DNA of 11,751 nucleotides from a virus, in UHGV virus genome UHGV-1586850. The stretch is one strand, 5' to 3'. The position numbers and the translations under genes are program-made. Below are positions 1,192 to 5,756 of the stretch, piece by piece; position 1 is the first letter of the stretch, and each line of letters begins with the position of its first letter. The notes under the pieces are model-generated. The model ran no database searches. It saw only the letters and a list, made by a program, of their open reading frames with translations, and was not told where the DNA came from.

Positions 1192-1956
1192 ATGAAAATG
1201 AAGACATTACCCATCGTTCCATGGATTGGTGGCAAACGTCGCCTGGCAAAACACATCCTGCCGCTGTTTCCGGCGCATGAATGTTATGTGGAGCCGTTTT
1301 GTGGGGCAGCAGCGCTCTATTTTCTTAAGACACCCGGCAAGATCGAAGTCATCAATGATATCAACGGTGAACTGGTGAATCTGTACCGGGTGGTAAAGCA
1401 TCACCTGGAAGAATTTGTCCGCCAGTTCAAATGGGCGCTGGTCAGCCGTCAGATCTACAAATGGCTGCAGATCACCCCGGAAGAAACACTGACGGATATC
1501 CAGCGTGCGGCACGGTTCTACTACCTTCAGAAGCAGGCGTTTGGCGGCAAGGTGGCAGAGCACAGCTTCGGTACCTCCACCACATCCCCGCCACGCTTCA
1601 ACCTGCTGCGTATTGAAGAAGAACTGTCAGCAGCACACCTGCGGCTTTCCAGAACAGTCATAGAACACATGGACTGGCAACAGTGCATTGAGCGTTATGA
1701 TCGTCCGCACACACTGTTCTACTGCGACCCACCGTACCTGGGTACGGAAGGCTATGGTGTGGATTTTCCTGAAGGGAACTACTCGCGGCTGGCAGAGCTG
1801 GCCCGGTGCATCAGAGGAAAAATGATAATTTCGGTGAACGATATCCCACAGATGCGCGAGGTGTTCACTGGACTGAACATACAGACAGTGAACATCAACT
1901 ACAGTCTGGCGGGGAAATCTACGCCGCGCCGTGAACTGGTAATCTGCAACTTCTGA
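1192..1956 (+). CDS. Dam-family (D12 class) N6-adenine DNA methyltransferase, apparently orphan
   Basis: N-terminal VPWIGGKRRL (the xWxGGK signature of Dam-like enzymes), EPFCGAAALYF AdoMet-binding motif I variant, and catalytic DPPY at residues 179-182 (nt 1726-1737) in the Dam-typical position. No restriction endonuclease candidate adjacent. Confidence 0.9.
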   Translation: MKMKTLPIVPWIGGKRRLAKHILPLFPAHECYVEPFCGAAALYFLKTPGKIEVINDINGELVNLYRVVKHHLEEFVRQFKWALVSRQIYKWLQITPEETLTDIQRAARFYYLQKQAFGGKVAEHSFGTSTTSPPRFNLLRIEEELSAAHLRLSRTVIEHMDWQQCIERYDRPHTLFYCDPPYLGTEGYGVDFPEGNYSRLAELARCIRGKMIISVNDIPQMREVFTGLNIQTVNINYSLAGKSTPRRELVICNF

Positions 1957-1963
1957 AACAAAA

Positions 1964-1986
1964 CCGGAAAGCACAATGCTTTCCGG
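1964..1986 (-). terminator. Intrinsic terminator for the leftward repressor transcript
   Basis: Stem CCGGAAAGC (1964-1972) / GCTTTCCGG (1978-1986), loop ACAAT. On the minus strand the hairpin is followed by TTTTGTTTC (complement of 1951-1963). On the plus strand no T-tract follows, so it is a weak terminator at best for the methyltransferase. Confidence 0.5.
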
Positions 1987-2072
1987 TAAACCAAACAACT
2001 TCCACTATGTCACTGGCGATGTTTTCTGAAAGCATCCAGATCAACCACCTGTCCTTTGTGTCCAGGTCAAAA

Positions 2073-2411
2073 TCAGCCTGCGAGTTTGCTTGGTTTGGGT
2101 TGAATGAAGACTTTGCCGACCTCAAGAATTGCCCTCCGTTGTTCGGGGCTCATTTCGTCGAATGCATCCATTAACTCTTTCTTTTCTTGTGACACATAAG
2201 GTGCAACAACAGGCTGACTCCGCACCCCAGTAACTACATACAAAATATCTACACCGATTTCTGATAGTGCAGATAACTGCACTGCAGTAGGAGAAGTGCG
2301 ATCTTTTTCCCAATCAATGAAAGTTCTCTTTGCCACACCTATAGCATCAGCCAACCCTTGCTGTGTAAGAGATAGACGCTCTCTTTCTTCTTTAATACGT
2401 AACCCGATCAT
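2073..2411 (-). CDS. XRE-family HTH transcriptional repressor (prophage c/CI-like), about 112 aa
   Basis: Helix-turn-helix LSLTQQGLADAIGVAKRTFIDWEKDRTSP near the N-terminus if translation starts at the ATG at 2411. Leftward orientation, divergent from the early operon. The longer ORF-track model (GTG at 2564) would overlap the ner-like gene by 53 bp and lacks an SD. Confidence 0.7.
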   Translation of the reverse strand: MIGLRIKEERERLSLTQQGLADAIGVAKRTFIDWEKDRTSPTAVQLSALSEIGVDILYVVTGVRSQPVVAPYVSQEKKELMDAFDEMSPEQRRAILEVGKVFIQPKPSKLAG

Positions 2412-2458
2412 GTGAGTTTTTCTGCACTCTTTAAGTTGACTGGTGAGGTAATCTGCAC
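2412..2458. promoter_or_regulatory. Two 16-bp operator-like repeats GTGAG-N4-TCTGCAC (2412-2427 and 2443-2458)
   Basis: Direct repeat with 31-bp centre-to-centre spacing. Each copy is an imperfect dyad (GTGAG versus the complement of CTGCAC, i.e. GTGCAG). Copy 2 lies in the -35/-10 spacer of the early promoter. Confidence 0.4.
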
Positions 2459-2464
2459 CATAAT
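2436..2464 (+). promoter_or_regulatory. Candidate early promoter (Pe-like): TTGACT-N17-CATAAT
   Basis: -35 TTGACT (2436-2441), 17-bp spacer, -10 CATAAT (2459-2464). About 45 bp upstream of the ner-like start, whose SD AAAGGAGA is at 2499-2506. Confidence 0.5.
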
Positions 2465-2511
2465 CTATCACACATAAGGCAAACATCATTGCATCAACAA
2501 AGGAGACAACG

Positions 2512-2700
2512 ATGACTGCAGAACAAGTCAAAGCTCTCTTCCGCCAGCGCGGGATCACTTTCACCCGCTGGGCAGAAGAAAACGGCTACAACCGCAATGA
2601 GGTATACCGCGTTCTCAATGGGCAGACCAAAGCCCGTTACGGTAAATCCCATGAAATCGCCGTGAAGTTGGGGCTGAAATCAACAGCTCAGGCAGCCTGA
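2512..2700 (+). CDS. ner: Ner-like small DNA-binding regulator (Ner/Nlp family)
   Basis: 62 aa. The pattern of conserved residues (GY, Y/F-R-hL, IAxxLGL) aligns with my recollection of Mu Ner. It is the first gene of the rightward operon, divergent from the repressor, with a good SD. Confidence 0.7.
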   Translation: MTAEQVKALFRQRGITFTRWAEENGYNRNEVYRVLNGQTKARYGKSHEIAVKLGLKSTAQAA

Positions 2701-2752
2701 AGATTTTGAGTCTTTGTAAAAGGTTATCACATATCGCAAAAGAGGTATGCAG

Positions 2753-3061
2753 ATGAGTAAGACGAATGTTTCAAGCTCCGGCAGTCGCATCCTCCGGGTA
2801 CTCAAAGCGCTGCGCGGTCATGCCCTGAACGGTATTTCCAACGGTGAACTGGCGGCAGCACTGCACGAGTCACCGGCAAACATCAACCGGGCACTCAACA
2901 CCCTCATTGAAGAAGGGTTGGCCCTGAAACTGGAAAACGGGCGTTTCGCGCCGGGCATCCAGTTACTGCAGATCGCTATGGCCCACAGTAACGAGATGGC
3001 ACGTGCACAGGATCGCATTAACGAAATCAACCAACGTGTCATTTCAGGTAGTCGTTTGTAA
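2753..3061 (+). CDS. Hypothetical winged-helix-like DNA-binding protein (about 102 aa)
   Basis: SD AGAGG (2741-2745) is 7 nt before ATG 2753; the ATG at 2747 is too close to the SD. The N-terminal region ILRVLKALRGHALNGISNGELAAAL resembles IclR/MarR-type wHTH. Confidence 0.6.
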   Translation: MSKTNVSSSGSRILRVLKALRGHALNGISNGELAAALHESPANINRALNTLIEEGLALKLENGRFAPGIQLLQIAMAHSNEMARAQDRINEINQRVISGSRL

Positions 3062-3071
3062 GGAGTAATAA

Positions 3072-3983
3072 ATGGGACGCACCAAATCACCGATTAACAC
3101 TGAACTGAACGCCGAGGTACCGCTGTCGGATGATCTCAATGTCAGTCTGAACGCCATGACACAGCATCGTATGGAGATCATGCAGCAGTTTGGCGATGGT
3201 CAGCCCTATGAGCGTGATCGCATAGTTCATGAGGCTCGGTTTTATATGGCACAGAGCGCTGAGGCCATGCTGGAAGCAGGTAAACGACTTATTATTCTCA
3301 AAGAAAATGAACCTCACGGGGACTTTGTTGGAATTGTAGAAGAACAACTTGGTCTGCATGTGCGCGCAGCACAACGAATGATGAAAGCATCTTTGAAATA
3401 CCTTTCACCAAAACTAGAGCCAAAAGCGACAACGTTGTCGCTTTTAGGTAAGGCAAAATTATTTGAACTTGTTGCTGAAGATGACGACGACCTTGCTGAA
3501 CTGGCCGACGGTGGCACAGTTGCCGGACTGACGCTTGACGATGTTGATCGCATGTCAGTACGTGAATTGCGTCAGGCCCTGCGCGAAGCGCGCGAAACCA
3601 ACGCAGCACAACAGCGCGTACTCGCCGACAAAAATGAAAAAATAGATTCACTCTCCACCAGACTGGAGAAGAAATCCCGTATTCAGCCGCCTGAGCCTGA
3701 TGAGGAGGTTAAGAAGCTGCGGGCGGAAGTAACAGCATTAGCGGTTGAGGCGGAATCTGCTATCGCCGTCCGACTGTCCAGCGCTTTTGAGACGCTGTGC
3801 GCATATTGTGCTGAAAACATGATTGATACCCCCAGAGACTTCATGGCAGGCCTGGTCTGTCAACTGGAAAGCACAGCGCGTAGCCTGCGCTCCACATTTG
3901 ACCTGCCGGACGAGCCAACAGGCAATGCAGCGCCTTCATGGCTGACTGAGCCGACGCCACAGATTAACGGGCTGGAGGCATAA
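3072..3983 (+). CDS. Hypothetical protein (303 aa) with an acidic stretch and predicted coiled-coil
   Basis: SD AGGAG (3061-3065) 6 nt before the ATG. Acidic run AEDDDDLAELADGG and a heptad-like charged helical region. Stop is 3 nt before the transposase start (translational coupling). Confidence 0.65.
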   Translation: MGRTKSPINTELNAEVPLSDDLNVSLNAMTQHRMEIMQQFGDGQPYERDRIVHEARFYMAQSAEAMLEAGKRLIILKENEPHGDFVGIVEEQLGLHVRAAQRMMKASLKYLSPKLEPKATTLSLLGKAKLFELVAEDDDDLAELADGGTVAGLTLDDVDRMSVRELRQALREARETNAAQQRVLADKNEKIDSLSTRLEKKSRIQPPEPDEEVKKLRAEVTALAVEAESAIAVRLSSAFETLCAYCAENMIDTPRDFMAGLVCQLESTARSLRSTFDLPDEPTGNAAPSWLTEPTPQINGLEA

Positions 3984-3986
3984 CCA

Positions 3987-5756
3987 ATGAATGCTGCCCT
4001 GACTGAACGACTGGTTTATGTCGCCCGCGCGGCACGTGACGCGGGGCATGGTAAACGCGGCGCAGTATACGACGCTGCCTGTGCTGAACTTGGCATGTCC
4101 CGCGCCACTCTGCTGCGCAGGCTGAAGGAGGTATCTGTGACTGATAAACGCAAAAAACGCGCCGATGCCGGGCGCAGCGCCCTGACCCGCGACGAAGCCG
4201 CGCTGATATCTGCCACACTGCGTGAGGCCACCCGCAAGAACGGTAAGCGTCTCTATTCCATCGCGGATGCAGTGGAAACCCTGCGGGCTAACGGCTTTAT
4301 ATCCGCAGGCAGAACAGATGAAACCACCGGTGAGTTTTTCCCGTTGTCCGAAGATGCCATCAGCCGAGCCCTGCGTAACTATGGCCTGCACCCGGAACAA
4401 CTGGATGCCCCTGCACCGCATACCGAAGTGGCCAGTCTGCACCCCAATCATGTCTGGCAGATTGACGCCTCACTCTGCACGCTTTACTACCTGAGCAATG
4501 GACATAAAGGGCTGCAGGTGATGGACAGCGCGAAATTCTACAAAAACAAGCCCGCTAACCTTGCCCGTATCGCCAGTGACCGCGTGTGGAGTTACGAGAT
4601 TACCGACCATGCCAGCGGCTGGATTTACGTTGAGTATGTGACGGGTGCGGAATCCGGTGAGAACCTGTGTTCTGTGCTTATCAACGCCATGCAGGAGCGT
4701 GGCGGCGCAGACGTGCTGCACGGCGTGCCAAAAATACTCTATCTCGACCCCGGCTCGGCAAACACCGCGGGTATGACGAAAAACATGTGCCGCTCACTGG
4801 GCATCGACCTGATAGCGCACAAGCCGCATAACGCCCGCGCCACCGGACAGGTGGAAAAGGCGCGTGACATTATCGAACGCAAGCTGGAGCCGGGTCTGAA
4901 GTTCCGGCCGGTTCACAGTCTGGAAGAACTCAACGCGCTGGCCGCGAAATGGCGCAGCCACTTTAACGCCACGGCTGTTCACAGCCGCCACGGTAAAACC
5001 CGCACGGATATCTGGCTGAAGATTACTGCTGAGCAGCTGAAAAAAGCGCCTTCCGTTGAGGTATGTCGTGAACTGGCTGTGGCGGCACCAGAACTCCGCA
5101 AAGTCACGCCAAAACTTCGTGTCTCGTTCCGGGGCACTGAATTTGACGTATCAACGGTACCGGGCGTACTGGTCGGTGAAAAACTGATGATTACCCGTAA
5201 CCCGTGGCGCAGCGATGTGGCACAGGTGGTTCTGACCGGTGAGGACGGCCACGAGACGTTCTTCCTGGTCGAAGAGGTCAGAAAGAACGAGTTTGGCTTT
5301 GCTGAAGGCGCGGCGGTATTTGGCGAAAGTTACAAAGCCCTGCCGGAAACCCCGGCGCAGATGGCGGCAAAAGAAACCGAAGCGCTGGTCACCGGTACAG
5401 ACAACGCCGCAGATGCAGCTGCCGCACGCAAGGCGAAGGCGCTGCCGTTCGGCGGGCGGCTTGACCCGTATAAACATATTGATGACGCCACACTTCCGGC
5501 CTGTATACCGAAGCGTGGTCAGGCCTCTGACGTACGCGGGCCGCGCACTGAACAACGTCCCATGACTTATGTGGAGGCCGCGAAAGCCCTGCGCGATAAG
5601 TTCAGCGCCAACGGCTTTACCTGGACGCCGGAACATTACCGCCAGTTAACGGCACAGTATCCGGACGGCGTACCGGAAGCCGCACTGGATGAAGTCATGG
5701 CCACGCTGACCACGCCGGCCCGCAGCAGCGTTATCAGTATTGTTAACGGCAACTGA
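3987..5756 (+). CDS. DDE transposase/integrase-fold protein (Mu A-like; DD(35)E catalytic core)
   Basis: 589 aa, SD GGAGG (3974-3978). Candidate catalytic triad D160 (HVWQIDAS, nt 4464-4466), D254 (ILYLDPGS) and E290 (ATGQVEKA), with the 35-residue D-to-E spacing typical of the rve/retroviral-integrase superfamily. HTH-like N-terminus. Followed directly by an ATPase gene, as in Mu A/B. Confidence 0.85.
   Translation: MNAALTERLVYVARAARDAGHGKRGAVYDAACAELGMSRATLLRRLKEVSVTDKRKKRADAGRSALTRDEAALISATLREATRKNGKRLYSIADAVETLRANGFISAGRTDETTGEFFPLSEDAISRALRNYGLHPEQLDAPAPHTEVASLHPNHVWQIDASLCTLYYLSNGHKGLQVMDSAKFYKNKPANLARIASDRVWSYEITDHASGWIYVEYVTGAESGENLCSVLINAMQERGGADVLHGVPKILYLDPGSANTAGMTKNMCRSLGIDLIAHKPHNARATGQVEKARDIIERKLEPGLKFRPVHSLEELNALAAKWRSHFNATAVHSRHGKTRTDIWLKITAEQLKKAPSVEVCRELAVAAPELRKVTPKLRVSFRGTEFDVSTVPGVLVGEKLMITRNPWRSDVAQVVLTGEDGHETFFLVEEVRKNEFGFAEGAAVFGESYKALPETPAQMAAKETEALVTGTDNAADAAAARKAKALPFGGRLDPYKHIDDATLPACIPKRGQASDVRGPRTEQRPMTYVEAAKALRDKFSANGFTWTPEHYRQLTAQYPDGVPEAALDEVMATLTTPARSSVISIVNGN

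What the first reader, a model, noticed from the sequence alone, without database searches (positions are those of the whole stretch)
2412..2511. Compact immunity switch: two dyad operator repeats bracketing a near-consensus promoter
GTGAG-N4-TCTGCAC occurs twice (2412-2427, 2443-2458), three helical turns apart. The second copy occupies the spacer of TTGACT-N17-CATAAT, and the first abuts the proposed repressor start codon. The repressor would then have no SD and possibly a leaderless transcript, as for lambda cI from PRM. This architecture suggests direct occlusion of the early promoter.
Basis: partly seen in the sequence, partly recalled or inferred. Interest (0 to 1): 0.4.

Follow-up and report, generated by a model that had tools for sequence, protein, structure and literature searches.

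The report
Mu-like prophage repressor operators and promoter
This is the on/off control region of a Mu-like (B3/BcepMu-type) prophage of E. coli, where a small repressor most likely sits on repeated sites across the early promoter; it is an ordinary kind of phage switch, with a probable third site hidden inside the repressor gene.

Summary
GTGAG-N4-TCTGCAC occurs exactly twice in the window (2412-2427 and 2443-2458), 31 bp apart. The second copy fills the 17-bp spacer of the only strong sigma-70-like promoter nearby (TTGACT-17-CATAAT, 2436-2464). The first abuts the ATG (2411) of a divergent 112-aa XRE-HTH repressor. The window is a B3/BcepMu-like transposable prophage: repressor, ner-like gene, DDE transposase, AAA+ B protein, Gam.

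Among 122 distinct relatives the layout recurs. A class-specific palindrome lies in the early-promoter spacer, and a weaker copy lies 29-34 bp upstream on the repressor start codon. Within this class the half-sites never vary; only the central N4 does. The segment that differs between immunity classes is 2188-2459: the HTH domain plus the sites, ending at the -10 hexamer.

Repression by promoter occlusion is therefore well supported, though by inference only. Each site is only weakly dyad-symmetric.

Its synonymous positions are frozen, and several other classes have analogous sites.

The leaderless-mRNA idea is unsupported: there is no SD, but also no promoter-like signal in the right place, and a B3-family phage uses upstream promoters.

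Verdict: a new member of a known kind; moderate-to-low interest.

The parts
2073..2411 (-). Immunity repressor gene, 112 aa: five-helix XRE/434-P22-type HTH (residues 2-61), linker, two-helix C-terminal module (75-103), no S24 peptidase domain
   Evidence: Pfam HTH_3 E=1.6e-7. P22 c2 N-terminal domain by sequence E=1.8e-4 and by fold TM 0.84-0.87, rmsd 1.4 A. AF2 model mean pLDDT 83.9. Start codon fixed by aligned N-termini and by a stop 6 codons upstream in relatives L003 and L010.
2412..2427 (.). O1: GTGAGTTTTTCTGCAC, the promoter-distal operator, abutting the repressor ATG; centre about -51.5 relative to the predicted Pe start
   Evidence: Exact match to the pattern. GTGAG and TCTGCAC are invariant and only N4 varies (TTTT, TATT, TCTT) in class relatives. 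An equivalent weaker copy lies 29-34 bp upstream of O2 in 67 of 78 relatives.
2436..2464 (+). Early promoter Pe: TTGACT (2436-2441), 17-nt spacer, CATAAT (2459-2464); predicted start about 2470-2472
   Evidence: Only promoter-like site in 1950-2800 and the best in 2400-4000. PWM score 12.7, the highest of all candidates scored in the window. A promoter of at least 9/12 lies within 100 nt upstream of ner in 88 of 122 distinct relatives.
2441..2460 (.). O2: TGGTGAGGTAATCTGCACCA (core GTGAG-GTAA-TCTGCAC 2443-2458), filling the Pe spacer; centre about -20.5
   Evidence: Outer dyad TGGTG-N10-CACCA. Within the class only N4 varies (GTAA, GAAA, ATAA, GTTT, ATTT, TTTT). Other immunity classes carry their own palindrome at the same place.
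2267..2282 (.). O3 (candidate auxiliary operator): perfect palindrome GTGCAG-ATAA-CTGCAC inside the repressor gene (codons 44-49), 145 bp from O1 and 176 bp from O2 centre to centre
   Evidence: Codons 43-48 show no synonymous variation in 13 diverged genes, while flanking codons vary freely. Analogous distal copies occur in other classes.
2188..2459 (.). Immunity-specific cassette: the only segment without similarity to heteroimmune relatives. It covers HTH codons 1 to about 74, O3, O1, the -35 and O2, and ends at the first base of the -10 hexamer.
   Evidence: blastn of the window against L004, L005 and L006 (breaks at 2187/2194 and 2460) and against PhiKM.
2465..2511 (+). Conserved leader of the early transcript, with SD GGAG at 2502-2505. 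It holds CATCA-TTG-CATCA (2484-2496), which is conserved across genera irrespective of immunity class; a candidate site for the conserved Ner-like protein.
   Evidence: Upstream regions of ner homologues listed side by side and compared by eye. Binding by Ner is inference only.
2512..2700 (+). ner-like gene (62 aa), first gene of the early operon
   Evidence: PHROG 925 E=3.8e-33. Weak Pfam HTH_35 hit, below cut-off. The matching gene is annotated 'Ner-like antirepressor' in Pseudomonas phage Bise; the B3 match is annotated only as an HTH DNA-binding protein.
1963..1987 (-). Terminator-like hairpin (11 pairs plus a T run) 86 nt downstream of the repressor stop
2703..2730 (-). Weak candidate distal leftward promoter (GTGATA-16-CAAAAT) in the ner/IclR-like intergenic region
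   Evidence: PWM scan: score 6.7 here and 8-11 at the same position in relatives. Conserved motif GTAAMAGRTTATCACATAT. Possible analogue of Fc02 pC1. Not verified.

Best explanation
The region is the lysis/lysogeny control region of a B3/BcepMu-like transposable (Mu-like) prophage of E. coli.

The 112-aa XRE-HTH repressor (2411..2073, minus strand) most likely binds, probably as a dimer, to 16-20 bp sites with outer GTG...CAC contacts.
- O2 (2441-2460) lies in the spacer of the early promoter Pe. Its occupancy would exclude RNA polymerase and shut off the ner-like gene, the transposase and the rest of the early operon.
- O1 (2412-2427) is 31 bp away on the same face of the helix. It probably adds cooperative binding and, because it abuts the repressor's own start codon, negative autoregulation.
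- A third, perfectly symmetric site, O3 (2267-2282), lies inside the repressor gene. It probably acts as an auxiliary operator that raises local repressor concentration by DNA looping through the C-terminal two-helix oligomerisation module.

What is shown: the sequence features, their non-random recurrence in relatives, the within-class conservation pattern, the mosaic boundaries, and the fold of the protein.

What is inferred: binding itself, cooperativity, looping, the oligomeric state, and the route of repressor transcription.
For: - The phage context is clear: XRE HTH, DDE transposase, AAA+ B-like protein and Gam; 93% identity to Escherichia phage PhiKM, genus Bcepmuvirus; identical copies at scattered chromosomal positions in E. 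coli.
- There are two exact copies of a pattern with 12 specified bases, 31 bp apart, and no others in the window.
- Pe is the only strong promoter here, and O2 fills its spacer.
- Among 122 distinct ner-upstream regions, 88 have a promoter of at least 9/12. Their spacers hold class-specific palindromes: median 7 symmetric pairs against a control mean of 4.6, with 55% above the control 95th percentile. A second copy lies at -29 to -34 in 67 of 78.
- Within this class, GTGAG and TCTGCAC are invariant in both sites across 10 distinct upstream sequences from at least two repressor subtypes (112 and 117 aa). Variation is confined to the N4 centres and the DNA between the sites.
- The heteroimmune relatives L004, L005 and L006 are 85-97% identical on both sides but unrelated across 2188-2459. 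The only class-specific protein segment is therefore the HTH domain; the ner-like and IclR-like genes are conserved across all three, and the transposase is conserved in PhiKM, which shares L004's intergenic sequence.
- Operator class tracks HTH identity: median at least 74% identity when at least 10 of 14 outer bases match, and about 30% otherwise. Ner identity does not track it.
- O3: codons 43-48 have no synonymous change in 13 genes. Outside O3, 20 of 27 comparable four- or six-fold degenerate codons vary (counted by hand from the table). Distal copies reach shuffle p<=0.05 in 24 of 88 relatives against 4.4 expected, at different positions in different classes.
- The prototype phage B3 has the same O2-in-spacer and O1 arrangement, with its GTG start inside O1.
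Against: - There is no experimental binding or transcript data for this element.
- O1 and O2 are only weakly symmetric, which is unusual for a 434/P22-type dimer.
- The operator/HTH correlation could in part reflect simple linkage, because the two are adjacent.
- O3 is absent from B3 and is not significant in most relatives (64 of 88). O1-O3 and O2-O3 distances are not in a consistent helical phase between classes.
- The oligomeric state is unknown. The C-terminal part of the AF2 model has only moderate confidence (pLDDT 46-82).
Confidence: 0.8

Rival explanations
1. The repressor mRNA is leaderless and starts at the A of the ATG (2411), from a promoter lying back to back with Pe. O2-bound repressor (centre about -39.5) activates it, and O1 (centre about -8.5) autorepresses it.
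For: - There is no SD within 17 nt of the ATG in this class, and the sequence just upstream is A-rich.
- In every class the start codon lies within or next to O1, only 9-25 bp from the Pe -35.
- The O2 position in this class would suit a class II activator (own arithmetic).
Against: - The required -10 positions read AGAAAA/CAGAAA and the -35 positions TCACCA. No leftward promoter passes the scan, and the PWM scan finds nothing with the right spacing.
- The distance from O2 to the ATG varies from about 25 to 40 bp between classes, so the activation geometry is not conserved.
- In the B3-family phage Fc02, RNA-seq assigns repressor transcription to a distal pC1 and to a pC2 overlapping pE (PMC9936078).
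Confidence: 0.2
2. The repressor is transcribed with a leader from promoters to the right of the sites. One candidate is an extended -10 (TGaTAGATT, minus strand 2470..2462) overlapping the Pe -10. The other is a distal promoter in the ner/IclR-like intergenic region (2730..2703), convergent with Pe. O2 and O1 would then also act as roadblocks for autoregulation, and translation would be SD-independent.
For: - TGnTAGATT is present in most enterobacterial classes.
- A leftward candidate about 280-295 nt upstream of the ATG recurs, with scores of 8-11 in relatives, inside a conserved intergenic motif.
- Fc02 offers a precedent, with its pC1 and pC2.
Against: - Both candidates are weak in this window (scores 6.6-6.7 against 12.7 for Pe).
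- The sequence carrying the TGnTAGATT element lies in DNA that is conserved anyway, as the start of the Pe transcript.
- An SD-less internal AUG on a long leader is normally translated poorly.
Confidence: 0.45
3. The repeats are bound not by the XRE repressor but by another phage protein: the Ner-like protein (as Cro shares lambda's operators), the IclR-like HTH protein, or the transposase (as Mu's operators double as the transposition enhancer).
For: In lambda, Cro shares the operators with CI. In Mu, O1-O2 overlap the enhancer bound by MuA (textbook knowledge, not tested here). Three further HTH proteins are encoded just downstream.
Against: ner and the IclR-like gene are 85-97% identical at the DNA level in relatives whose repeats are completely different, and the transposase is 97.6% identical in PhiKM, which shares L004's repeats. 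Only the XRE HTH domain changes with the repeats.
Confidence: 0.04
4. O3 is not an operator. The palindrome inside the gene is a by-product of coding constraints or of chance.
For: - It encodes the conserved AVQLSAL segment.
- B3 lacks an equivalent.
- Most relatives show no significant distal copy.
- Other short runs of invariant codons exist, for example codons 7-10.
Against: - Six consecutive codons, five of them four- or six-fold degenerate, show no synonymous change in 13 genes, while flanking codons do vary.
- Unrelated classes each carry a copy of their own operator at different places in their genes, for example TGCTCA-N6-TGAGCA on the WLLTGxS codons and GACATTTTTGGGA on the PKMS codons.
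- There is an excess of significant hits: 24 against 4.4 expected.
Confidence: 0.3

Closest known systems
Lysis/lysogeny region of Pseudomonas phage B3 and its family (Beetrevirus; Fc02), and BcepMu-like phages (Bcepmuvirus; Escherichia phage PhiKM)
   Same: - A divergent repressor gene and ner-like gene are separated by about 100 bp, and pE drives ner and the transposition genes.
- B3 has the same TTGACA-17-CACTAT promoter, with GGTGCAATATTTGGCACC in the spacer and a weaker copy at -33 that overlaps the GTG start of its P22 c2-like repressor.
- PhiKM is 93% identical to the window outside the immunity cassette.
   Different: - This immunity class has its own sites (GTGAG-N4-TCTGCAC) and an intragenic O3 that B3 lacks.
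- The Fc02 paper maps promoters but contains no operator analysis: the word 'operator' occurs once, and 'binding site' and 'palindrom' do not occur.
- The B3 genome paper could not be read here.
Lambdoid immunity regions (lambda, 434, P22 c2/OR)
   Same: - The 434/P22-type five-helix HTH.
- Several related operators over divergent genes, with the repressor occluding the lytic promoter.
- An exchangeable immunity cassette bounded by conserved DNA.
   Different: - There is no S24 autocleavage domain.
- There are two promoter-proximal sites rather than three.
- The Cro analogue (Ner-like) lies outside the immunity cassette, so it cannot share the class-specific operators.
- The sites are only weakly symmetric.
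- The element transposes rather than integrating.
Phage Mu c/ner/Pe-Pc region with O1-O3
   Same: The element is a transposable phage with the order repressor, operators, Pe, ner, A, B, gam.
   Different: - The repressor is an XRE HTH, not the Mu c/MuA winged-helix type; no such family was hit.
- The operators here do not co-vary with the transposase, so a Mu-style enhancer overlap is unlikely.
- No IHF site was examined.
SinR-type repressors (B. subtilis SinR; SinR-like repressors of arbitrium phages bound by AimX)
   Same: Similar size (112 against 111 aa) and architecture: an XRE HTH plus a C-terminal two-helix module. Full-length Foldseek hits: 1b0n_A (E=8e-4, 109 columns), 9sf2 and 9iaq.
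   Different: - The match outside the HTH is only architectural: rmsd above 9 A, TM about 0.5, and moderate pLDDT in the C-terminal part.
- Tetramerisation and an antirepressor partner were not tested.
- The host phylum and phage type are different.
Auxiliary or distal operators that act by looping (lac O2 inside lacZ, lambda OL-OR, 186 FL/FR, TP901-1 OD)
   Same: A strong extra site lies 145-176 bp from the promoter-proximal sites, inside a coding region. The comparison with these systems rests on my own knowledge.
   Different: Looping is not shown here. The site sits in the repressor's own HTH-coding DNA, so it travels with the immunity cassette.

Membership tests
B3/BcepMu-like transposable-phage lysis/lysogeny region | Transposable-phage gene set next to the switch (DDE transposase, AAA+ B-like protein, Gam) | tested here: met
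   Pfam rve, AAA_22 and Phage_Mu_Gam. PHROG transposase E=4e-146 and DNA transposition protein E=1.5e-93. PhiKM (Bcepmuvirus) at 93% identity.
B3/BcepMu-like transposable-phage lysis/lysogeny region | Divergent repressor and ner-like genes separated by a short non-coding stretch that holds pE | tested here: met
   The ATG at 2411 and the ATG at 2512 are 100 bp apart, with Pe at 2436-2464. B3 has the same layout.
B3/BcepMu-like transposable-phage lysis/lysogeny region | Repressor promoters pC2 (overlapping pE) and distal pC1, as reported for Fc02 | tested here: inconclusive
   Only weak candidates were found: TGaTAGATT at 2470..2462 and GTGATA-16-CAAAAT at 2730..2703. None passes the consensus scan.
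Lambdoid CI/c2-type repressor | 434/P22-type XRE HTH DNA-binding domain | tested here: met
   PF01381 E=1.6e-7. P22 c2 E=1.8e-4. Foldseek 3jxb TM 0.84-0.87, rmsd 1.4 A.
Lambdoid CI/c2-type repressor | C-terminal S24 (LexA-like) autocleavage and oligomerisation domain | tested here: not met
   The protein has 112 aa. There is no Peptidase_S24 hit. The C-terminal part is two helices and a disordered tail.
Lambdoid CI/c2-type repressor | Cro-like protein encoded within the immunity region and sharing the operators | tested here: not met
   The ner-like gene lies outside the class-specific segment and is 85-97% identical in heteroimmune relatives.
Mu c repressor / operator-enhancer system | Repressor DNA-binding domain homologous to the MuA N-terminal domain, with operators that double as the transposition enhancer | tested here: not met
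   The repressor hits only XRE-type families. The transposase is 97.6% conserved with PhiKM while the operators differ completely. Enhancer function itself cannot be tested here.
SinR-like repressors | N-terminal XRE HTH plus a C-terminal two-helix hook that mediates tetramerisation and antirepressor binding | tested here: inconclusive
   AF2 predicts helices 75-86 and 89-103 (pLDDT about 70-82). Foldseek gives a full-length hit to 1b0n_A at E=8e-4 but with rmsd 9.7 A. Oligomeric state and partner cannot be tested with these tools.
Operator sites of an HTH dimer | Two-fold symmetric half-sites about one helical turn apart | tested here: inconclusive
   O3 is a perfect 6-4-6 palindrome. O1 and O2 share only GTG...CAC (O2: TGGTG...CACCA). 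Most other classes have clear palindromes.

The most novel reading that the evidence does not exclude
The immunity cassettes of B3/BcepMu-like transposable phages may be self-contained three-operator units. Besides the two promoter-proximal sites, many classes embed a high-affinity copy of their own operator in the repressor's coding sequence, at a different place in each class. In this reading, a SinR-like oligomer loops the promoter to this intragenic site, so that DNA-binding specificity and all of its targets move together as one cassette of about 270 bp, ending exactly at the -10 hexamer.
Probability: 0.4. Interest if true: 0.5.

Novelty: new member of a known kind. Interest (0 to 1): 0.33.

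Why it matters
This prophage family is common. 595 of 5,426 complete E. coli genomes match the region, and 97 carry this immunity class.

The analysis gives these prophages a concrete map that can be tested: which promoter starts the lytic and transposition programme, which bases the repressor should need, and where heteroimmune phages swap specificity (2188-2459). It also corrects the repressor start that RefSeq annotates for identical copies.

If the intragenic third operator is real, it is a compact example of regulatory DNA written into the regulator's own coding sequence. It would also give a handle for engineering immunity or inducibility of Mu-like prophages. None of this changes the general picture of how phage switches work.

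Tried and rejected
- A fourth site at 2516-2531 (minus strand TTGACTTGTTCTGCAG, 3 mismatches). Rejected: it is the conserved ner N-terminal coding sequence and is present in all immunity classes.
- The 152/163-aa long repressor ORF (PGAP start at window 2531). Rejected: relatives have a stop 6 codons upstream of the ATG, and a 1-nt length difference between O1 and O2 changes the frame in the 117-aa subtype.
- A promoter at O3. Nothing promoter-like lies around 2240-2300 on either strand.
- A known RNA in 1900-3200. Rfam gives no hit at E<=1.
- A search for a sigma-70 promoter that would give a leaderless start. Nothing was found.
- Literature on operators of B3/BcepMu-like phages. Only the Fc02 transcriptome paper was found. 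The B3 genome paper (PMC516594) is not held.
- O3 in phage B3. Not found.
- Consistent helical phasing of O3 between classes. Not found: O2-O3 distances are 172-277 bp, with no common phase.

Full report
**1. What the window is**

The window carries a run of genes typical of a transposable (Mu-like) phage:
- a D12-class DNA adenine methylase (1192-1956, + strand);
- a 112-aa XRE-HTH protein on the minus strand (2411..2073);
- then, on the plus strand, a 62-aa ner-like HTH protein (2512-2700), an IclR-type HTH protein, a DUF3102 protein, a 589-aa DDE transposase, a 397-aa AAA+ "B"-like protein and a Mu Gam homologue.

It is 93% identical to Escherichia phage PhiKM, genus Bcepmuvirus. Its ner-like gene also matches Pseudomonas phage B3 and its relatives. 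The 2050-2720 segment matches 595 of 5,426 complete E. coli genomes. In 97 of them at least 80% of the segment is covered, and the copies lie at scattered chromosomal positions, as expected for a transposing prophage.

**2. The observation**

- GTGAGTTTTTCTGCAC at 2412-2427 and GTGAGGTAATCTGCAC at 2443-2458, 31 bp apart;
- TTGACT at 2436-2441, a 17-nt spacer, and CATAAT at 2459-2464;
- the minus-strand ATG at 2411, directly next to the first copy.

The pattern has only these two exact matches in the whole window on both strands. The promoter is the only sigma-70-like site in 1950-2800.

One correction is needed. The sites are poor dyads: GTG...CAC in both, and TGGTG-N10-CACCA for the second. 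They are direct repeats of each other.

**3. The start codon**

RefSeq annotates identical copies with a 152-aa product that starts at window 2531 and overlaps ner. That start is not credible, for three reasons:
- N-termini of homologues from many immunity classes align at MIGLRIKEE / MSLGERLKEE.
- A close relative is annotated at 112 aa.
- In relatives L003 and L010 an in-frame stop lies 6 codons upstream of the ATG.

The sequence before the ATG is AGAAAAACTCAC, so there is indeed no SD.

**4. Comparative evidence that the repeats are operators**

I fetched 160 loci around ner homologues from species-representative genomes and from viral contigs, and six E. coli loci of other immunity types. 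These give 122 distinct upstream regions with enough flanking DNA.

*The layout recurs.*
- 88 of the 122 regions have a promoter of at least 9/12 within 100 nt of ner.
- The promoter spacer holds a class-specific palindrome. Examples: GCTCATAATTATGAGC, TCCCATTTTTGGGA, ATGAGAAC-N4-GTTCTCAT, TATACACGTTTGTGTATA, GTCTAAATTTTTAGAC.
- The median is 7 symmetric pairs, against a control mean of 4.6. 55% of the regions exceed the control 95th percentile.
- A second, more degenerate copy lies 29-34 bp upstream in 67 of 78 cases, overlapping or touching the repressor start codon.
- The prototype B3 has the same arrangement.

*Conservation within the window's class.* There are 10 distinct upstream sequences, with repressor subtypes of 112 and 117 aa. 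GTGAG and TCTGCAC never change in either site. Variation is confined to the central four bases (TTTT, TATT, TCTT in O1; GTAA, GAAA, ATAA, GTTT, ATTT, TTTT in O2) and to the DNA between the sites.

**5. Who binds**

The heteroimmune E. coli relatives L004, L005 and L006 are 83-97% identical to the window up to 2187/2194 and again from 2460, and unrelated in between. PhiKM shows the same breaks.

The class-specific segment, 2188-2459, therefore contains only three things:
- codons 1 to about 74 of the repressor, which is the HTH domain;
- the sites;
- the -35 hexamer.

It ends at the first base of the -10 hexamer. ner and the IclR-like gene are conserved across these classes, and the transposase is conserved in PhiKM, which shares L004's immunity type. 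They therefore cannot be the readers of class-specific sites. That excludes the Cro-like and Mu-enhancer-like alternatives.

Operator class also tracks identity of the HTH domain. The median is at least 74% when at least 10 of 14 outer operator bases match, and about 30% otherwise. Ner identity is flat. Because the gene and the sites are adjacent, this correlation alone could reflect linkage. The conservation pattern within the class and the mosaic boundaries are the stronger arguments.

**6. The protein**

- The HTH domain is of the 434/P22 c2 type: phmmer E=1.8e-4, and Foldseek TM 0.84-0.87 at 1.4 A.
- There is no S24 domain.
- The AF2 model (mean pLDDT 83.9) shows five helices (residues 2-61), a linker, two C-terminal helices (75-86 and 89-103) and a disordered tail.
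- The C-terminal module (EKKELMDAFDxMxPEQRRAILEVGK...) is shared by several immunity classes. This fits a role in oligomerisation or in induction, not in DNA specificity.
- Full-length structural neighbours are SinR (1b0n) and SinR-like phage repressors. This is a resemblance in architecture only.

**7. A third site**

GTGCAG-ATAA-CTGCAC (2267-2282) is a perfect palindrome built from the better half-site. It lies inside the repressor gene at codons 44-49.

- In 13 diverged genes of the class, codons 43-48 (A V Q L S A) show no synonymous change.
- Outside O3, 20 of 27 comparable four- or six-fold degenerate codons vary (my count from the table).
- Other classes carry a distal copy of their own operator, each at a different place in the gene:
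  - TGCTCA-N6-TGAGCA on the WLLTGxS codons, with only the centre varying;
  - GACATTTTTGGGA on the PKMS codons of an otherwise variable linker;
  - 16/18 matches in L145 and L076.
- 24 of 88 regions reach shuffle p<=0.05, against 4.4 expected.
- B3 lacks such a site, and the spacing is not in a common helical phase.

I read O3 as a probable auxiliary (looping) operator, with moderate confidence.

**8. Repressor transcription**

The leaderless idea cannot be settled here and is not favoured.
- For a start at 2411, the -10 and -35 positions read AGAAAA/CAGAAA and TCACCA.
- No leftward promoter passes the consensus scan.
- The best leftward candidates are weak. One is an extended -10 (TGaTAGATT, 2470..2462) overlapping the Pe -10. 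The other is GTGATA-16-CAAAAT (2730..2703), in a conserved motif between ner and the next gene.
- In the B3-family phage Fc02, strand-specific RNA-seq indicates that the repressor is transcribed in lysogens from a distal pC1, and after induction from a pC2 overlapping pE (PMC9936078).

**9. Comparison with known systems, and verdict**

The region works like a classical phage immunity switch: the repressor sits over the lytic promoter, there are cooperative neighbouring sites, and autoregulation at the repressor's own start is likely.

It is not a lambdoid CI system. It has no S24 domain, and its Cro analogue lies outside the immunity cassette. It is not a Mu c system either, because the repressor fold is different. 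It belongs with the B3/BcepMu-like phages. For that group I found promoter mapping (Fc02) but no operator analysis in the literature I could search.

It is a new member of a known kind. The extras worth testing are the exact cassette boundaries and the intragenic third site.

Noticed in passing
window 2267-2282: Perfect palindrome GTGCAG-ATAA-CTGCAC inside the repressor gene. It is related to the two promoter sites. Its synonymous positions are invariant in 13 diverged genes, and other immunity classes have analogous sites within their own repressor genes.
   Followed up: yes
window 2465-2500 (especially 2484-2496): The leader between the Pe -10 and the ner SD is conserved whatever the immunity class. 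CATCA-TTG-CATCA / AACATCWTTGCATCA is kept from Enterobacteria to Pseudomonas, xanthomonads and Betaproteobacteria. It may be the binding site of the equally conserved Ner-like protein, or an element of the 5'UTR.
   Followed up: partly
window 2701-2746: The ner/IclR-like intergenic region holds a conserved motif, GTAAMAGRTTATCACATAT. TATCACA-ATA also occurs at 2466-2477 just after the Pe -10. On the minus strand the motif gives a weak promoter, GTGATA-16-CAAAAT, which is stronger in relatives. It may be an analogue of the distal pC1 of phage Fc02.
   Followed up: partly
window 2073-2531 (minus strand): RefSeq/PGAP annotates identical E. coli copies with a 152-aa repressor (WP_224154089.1) that starts about 120 nt upstream and overlaps ner. 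Relatives have a stop 6 codons upstream of the ATG at 2411, so this is probably a mis-called start.
   Followed up: yes
window 2086-2195 (repressor residues about 73-112): The C-terminal two-helix module (EKKELMDAFDxMxPEQRRAILEVGKxLxQPKPSKFAG) is shared by repressors with unrelated HTH specificities. A second C-terminal type (LLDNYxxLxxxDKxAL...) occurs in the 117-aa subtype. The module may be a common target for oligomerisation, an antirepressor or a protease.
   Followed up: partly
window 2406-2409: A GATC overlaps the repressor start codon (GATCATG) next to O1, and the Ile codon ATC is invariant in all 13 class members. The phage encodes its own Dam-type methylase, 117 bp beyond the repressor stop codon (1192-1956). 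A possible link between methylation and the switch was not examined.
   Followed up: no
window 1963-1987: A strong hairpin (11 pairs) with a T run on the minus strand lies between the convergent methylase and repressor genes. It is a likely terminator of the repressor transcript.
   Followed up: no
window 3874-3995 vs L001 6699-7155: This is the second non-homologous patch against PhiKM, at the end of the DUF3102 gene. PhiKM and some E. coli relatives carry an extra small ORF of about 105 aa before the transposase, which this window lacks.
   Followed up: no
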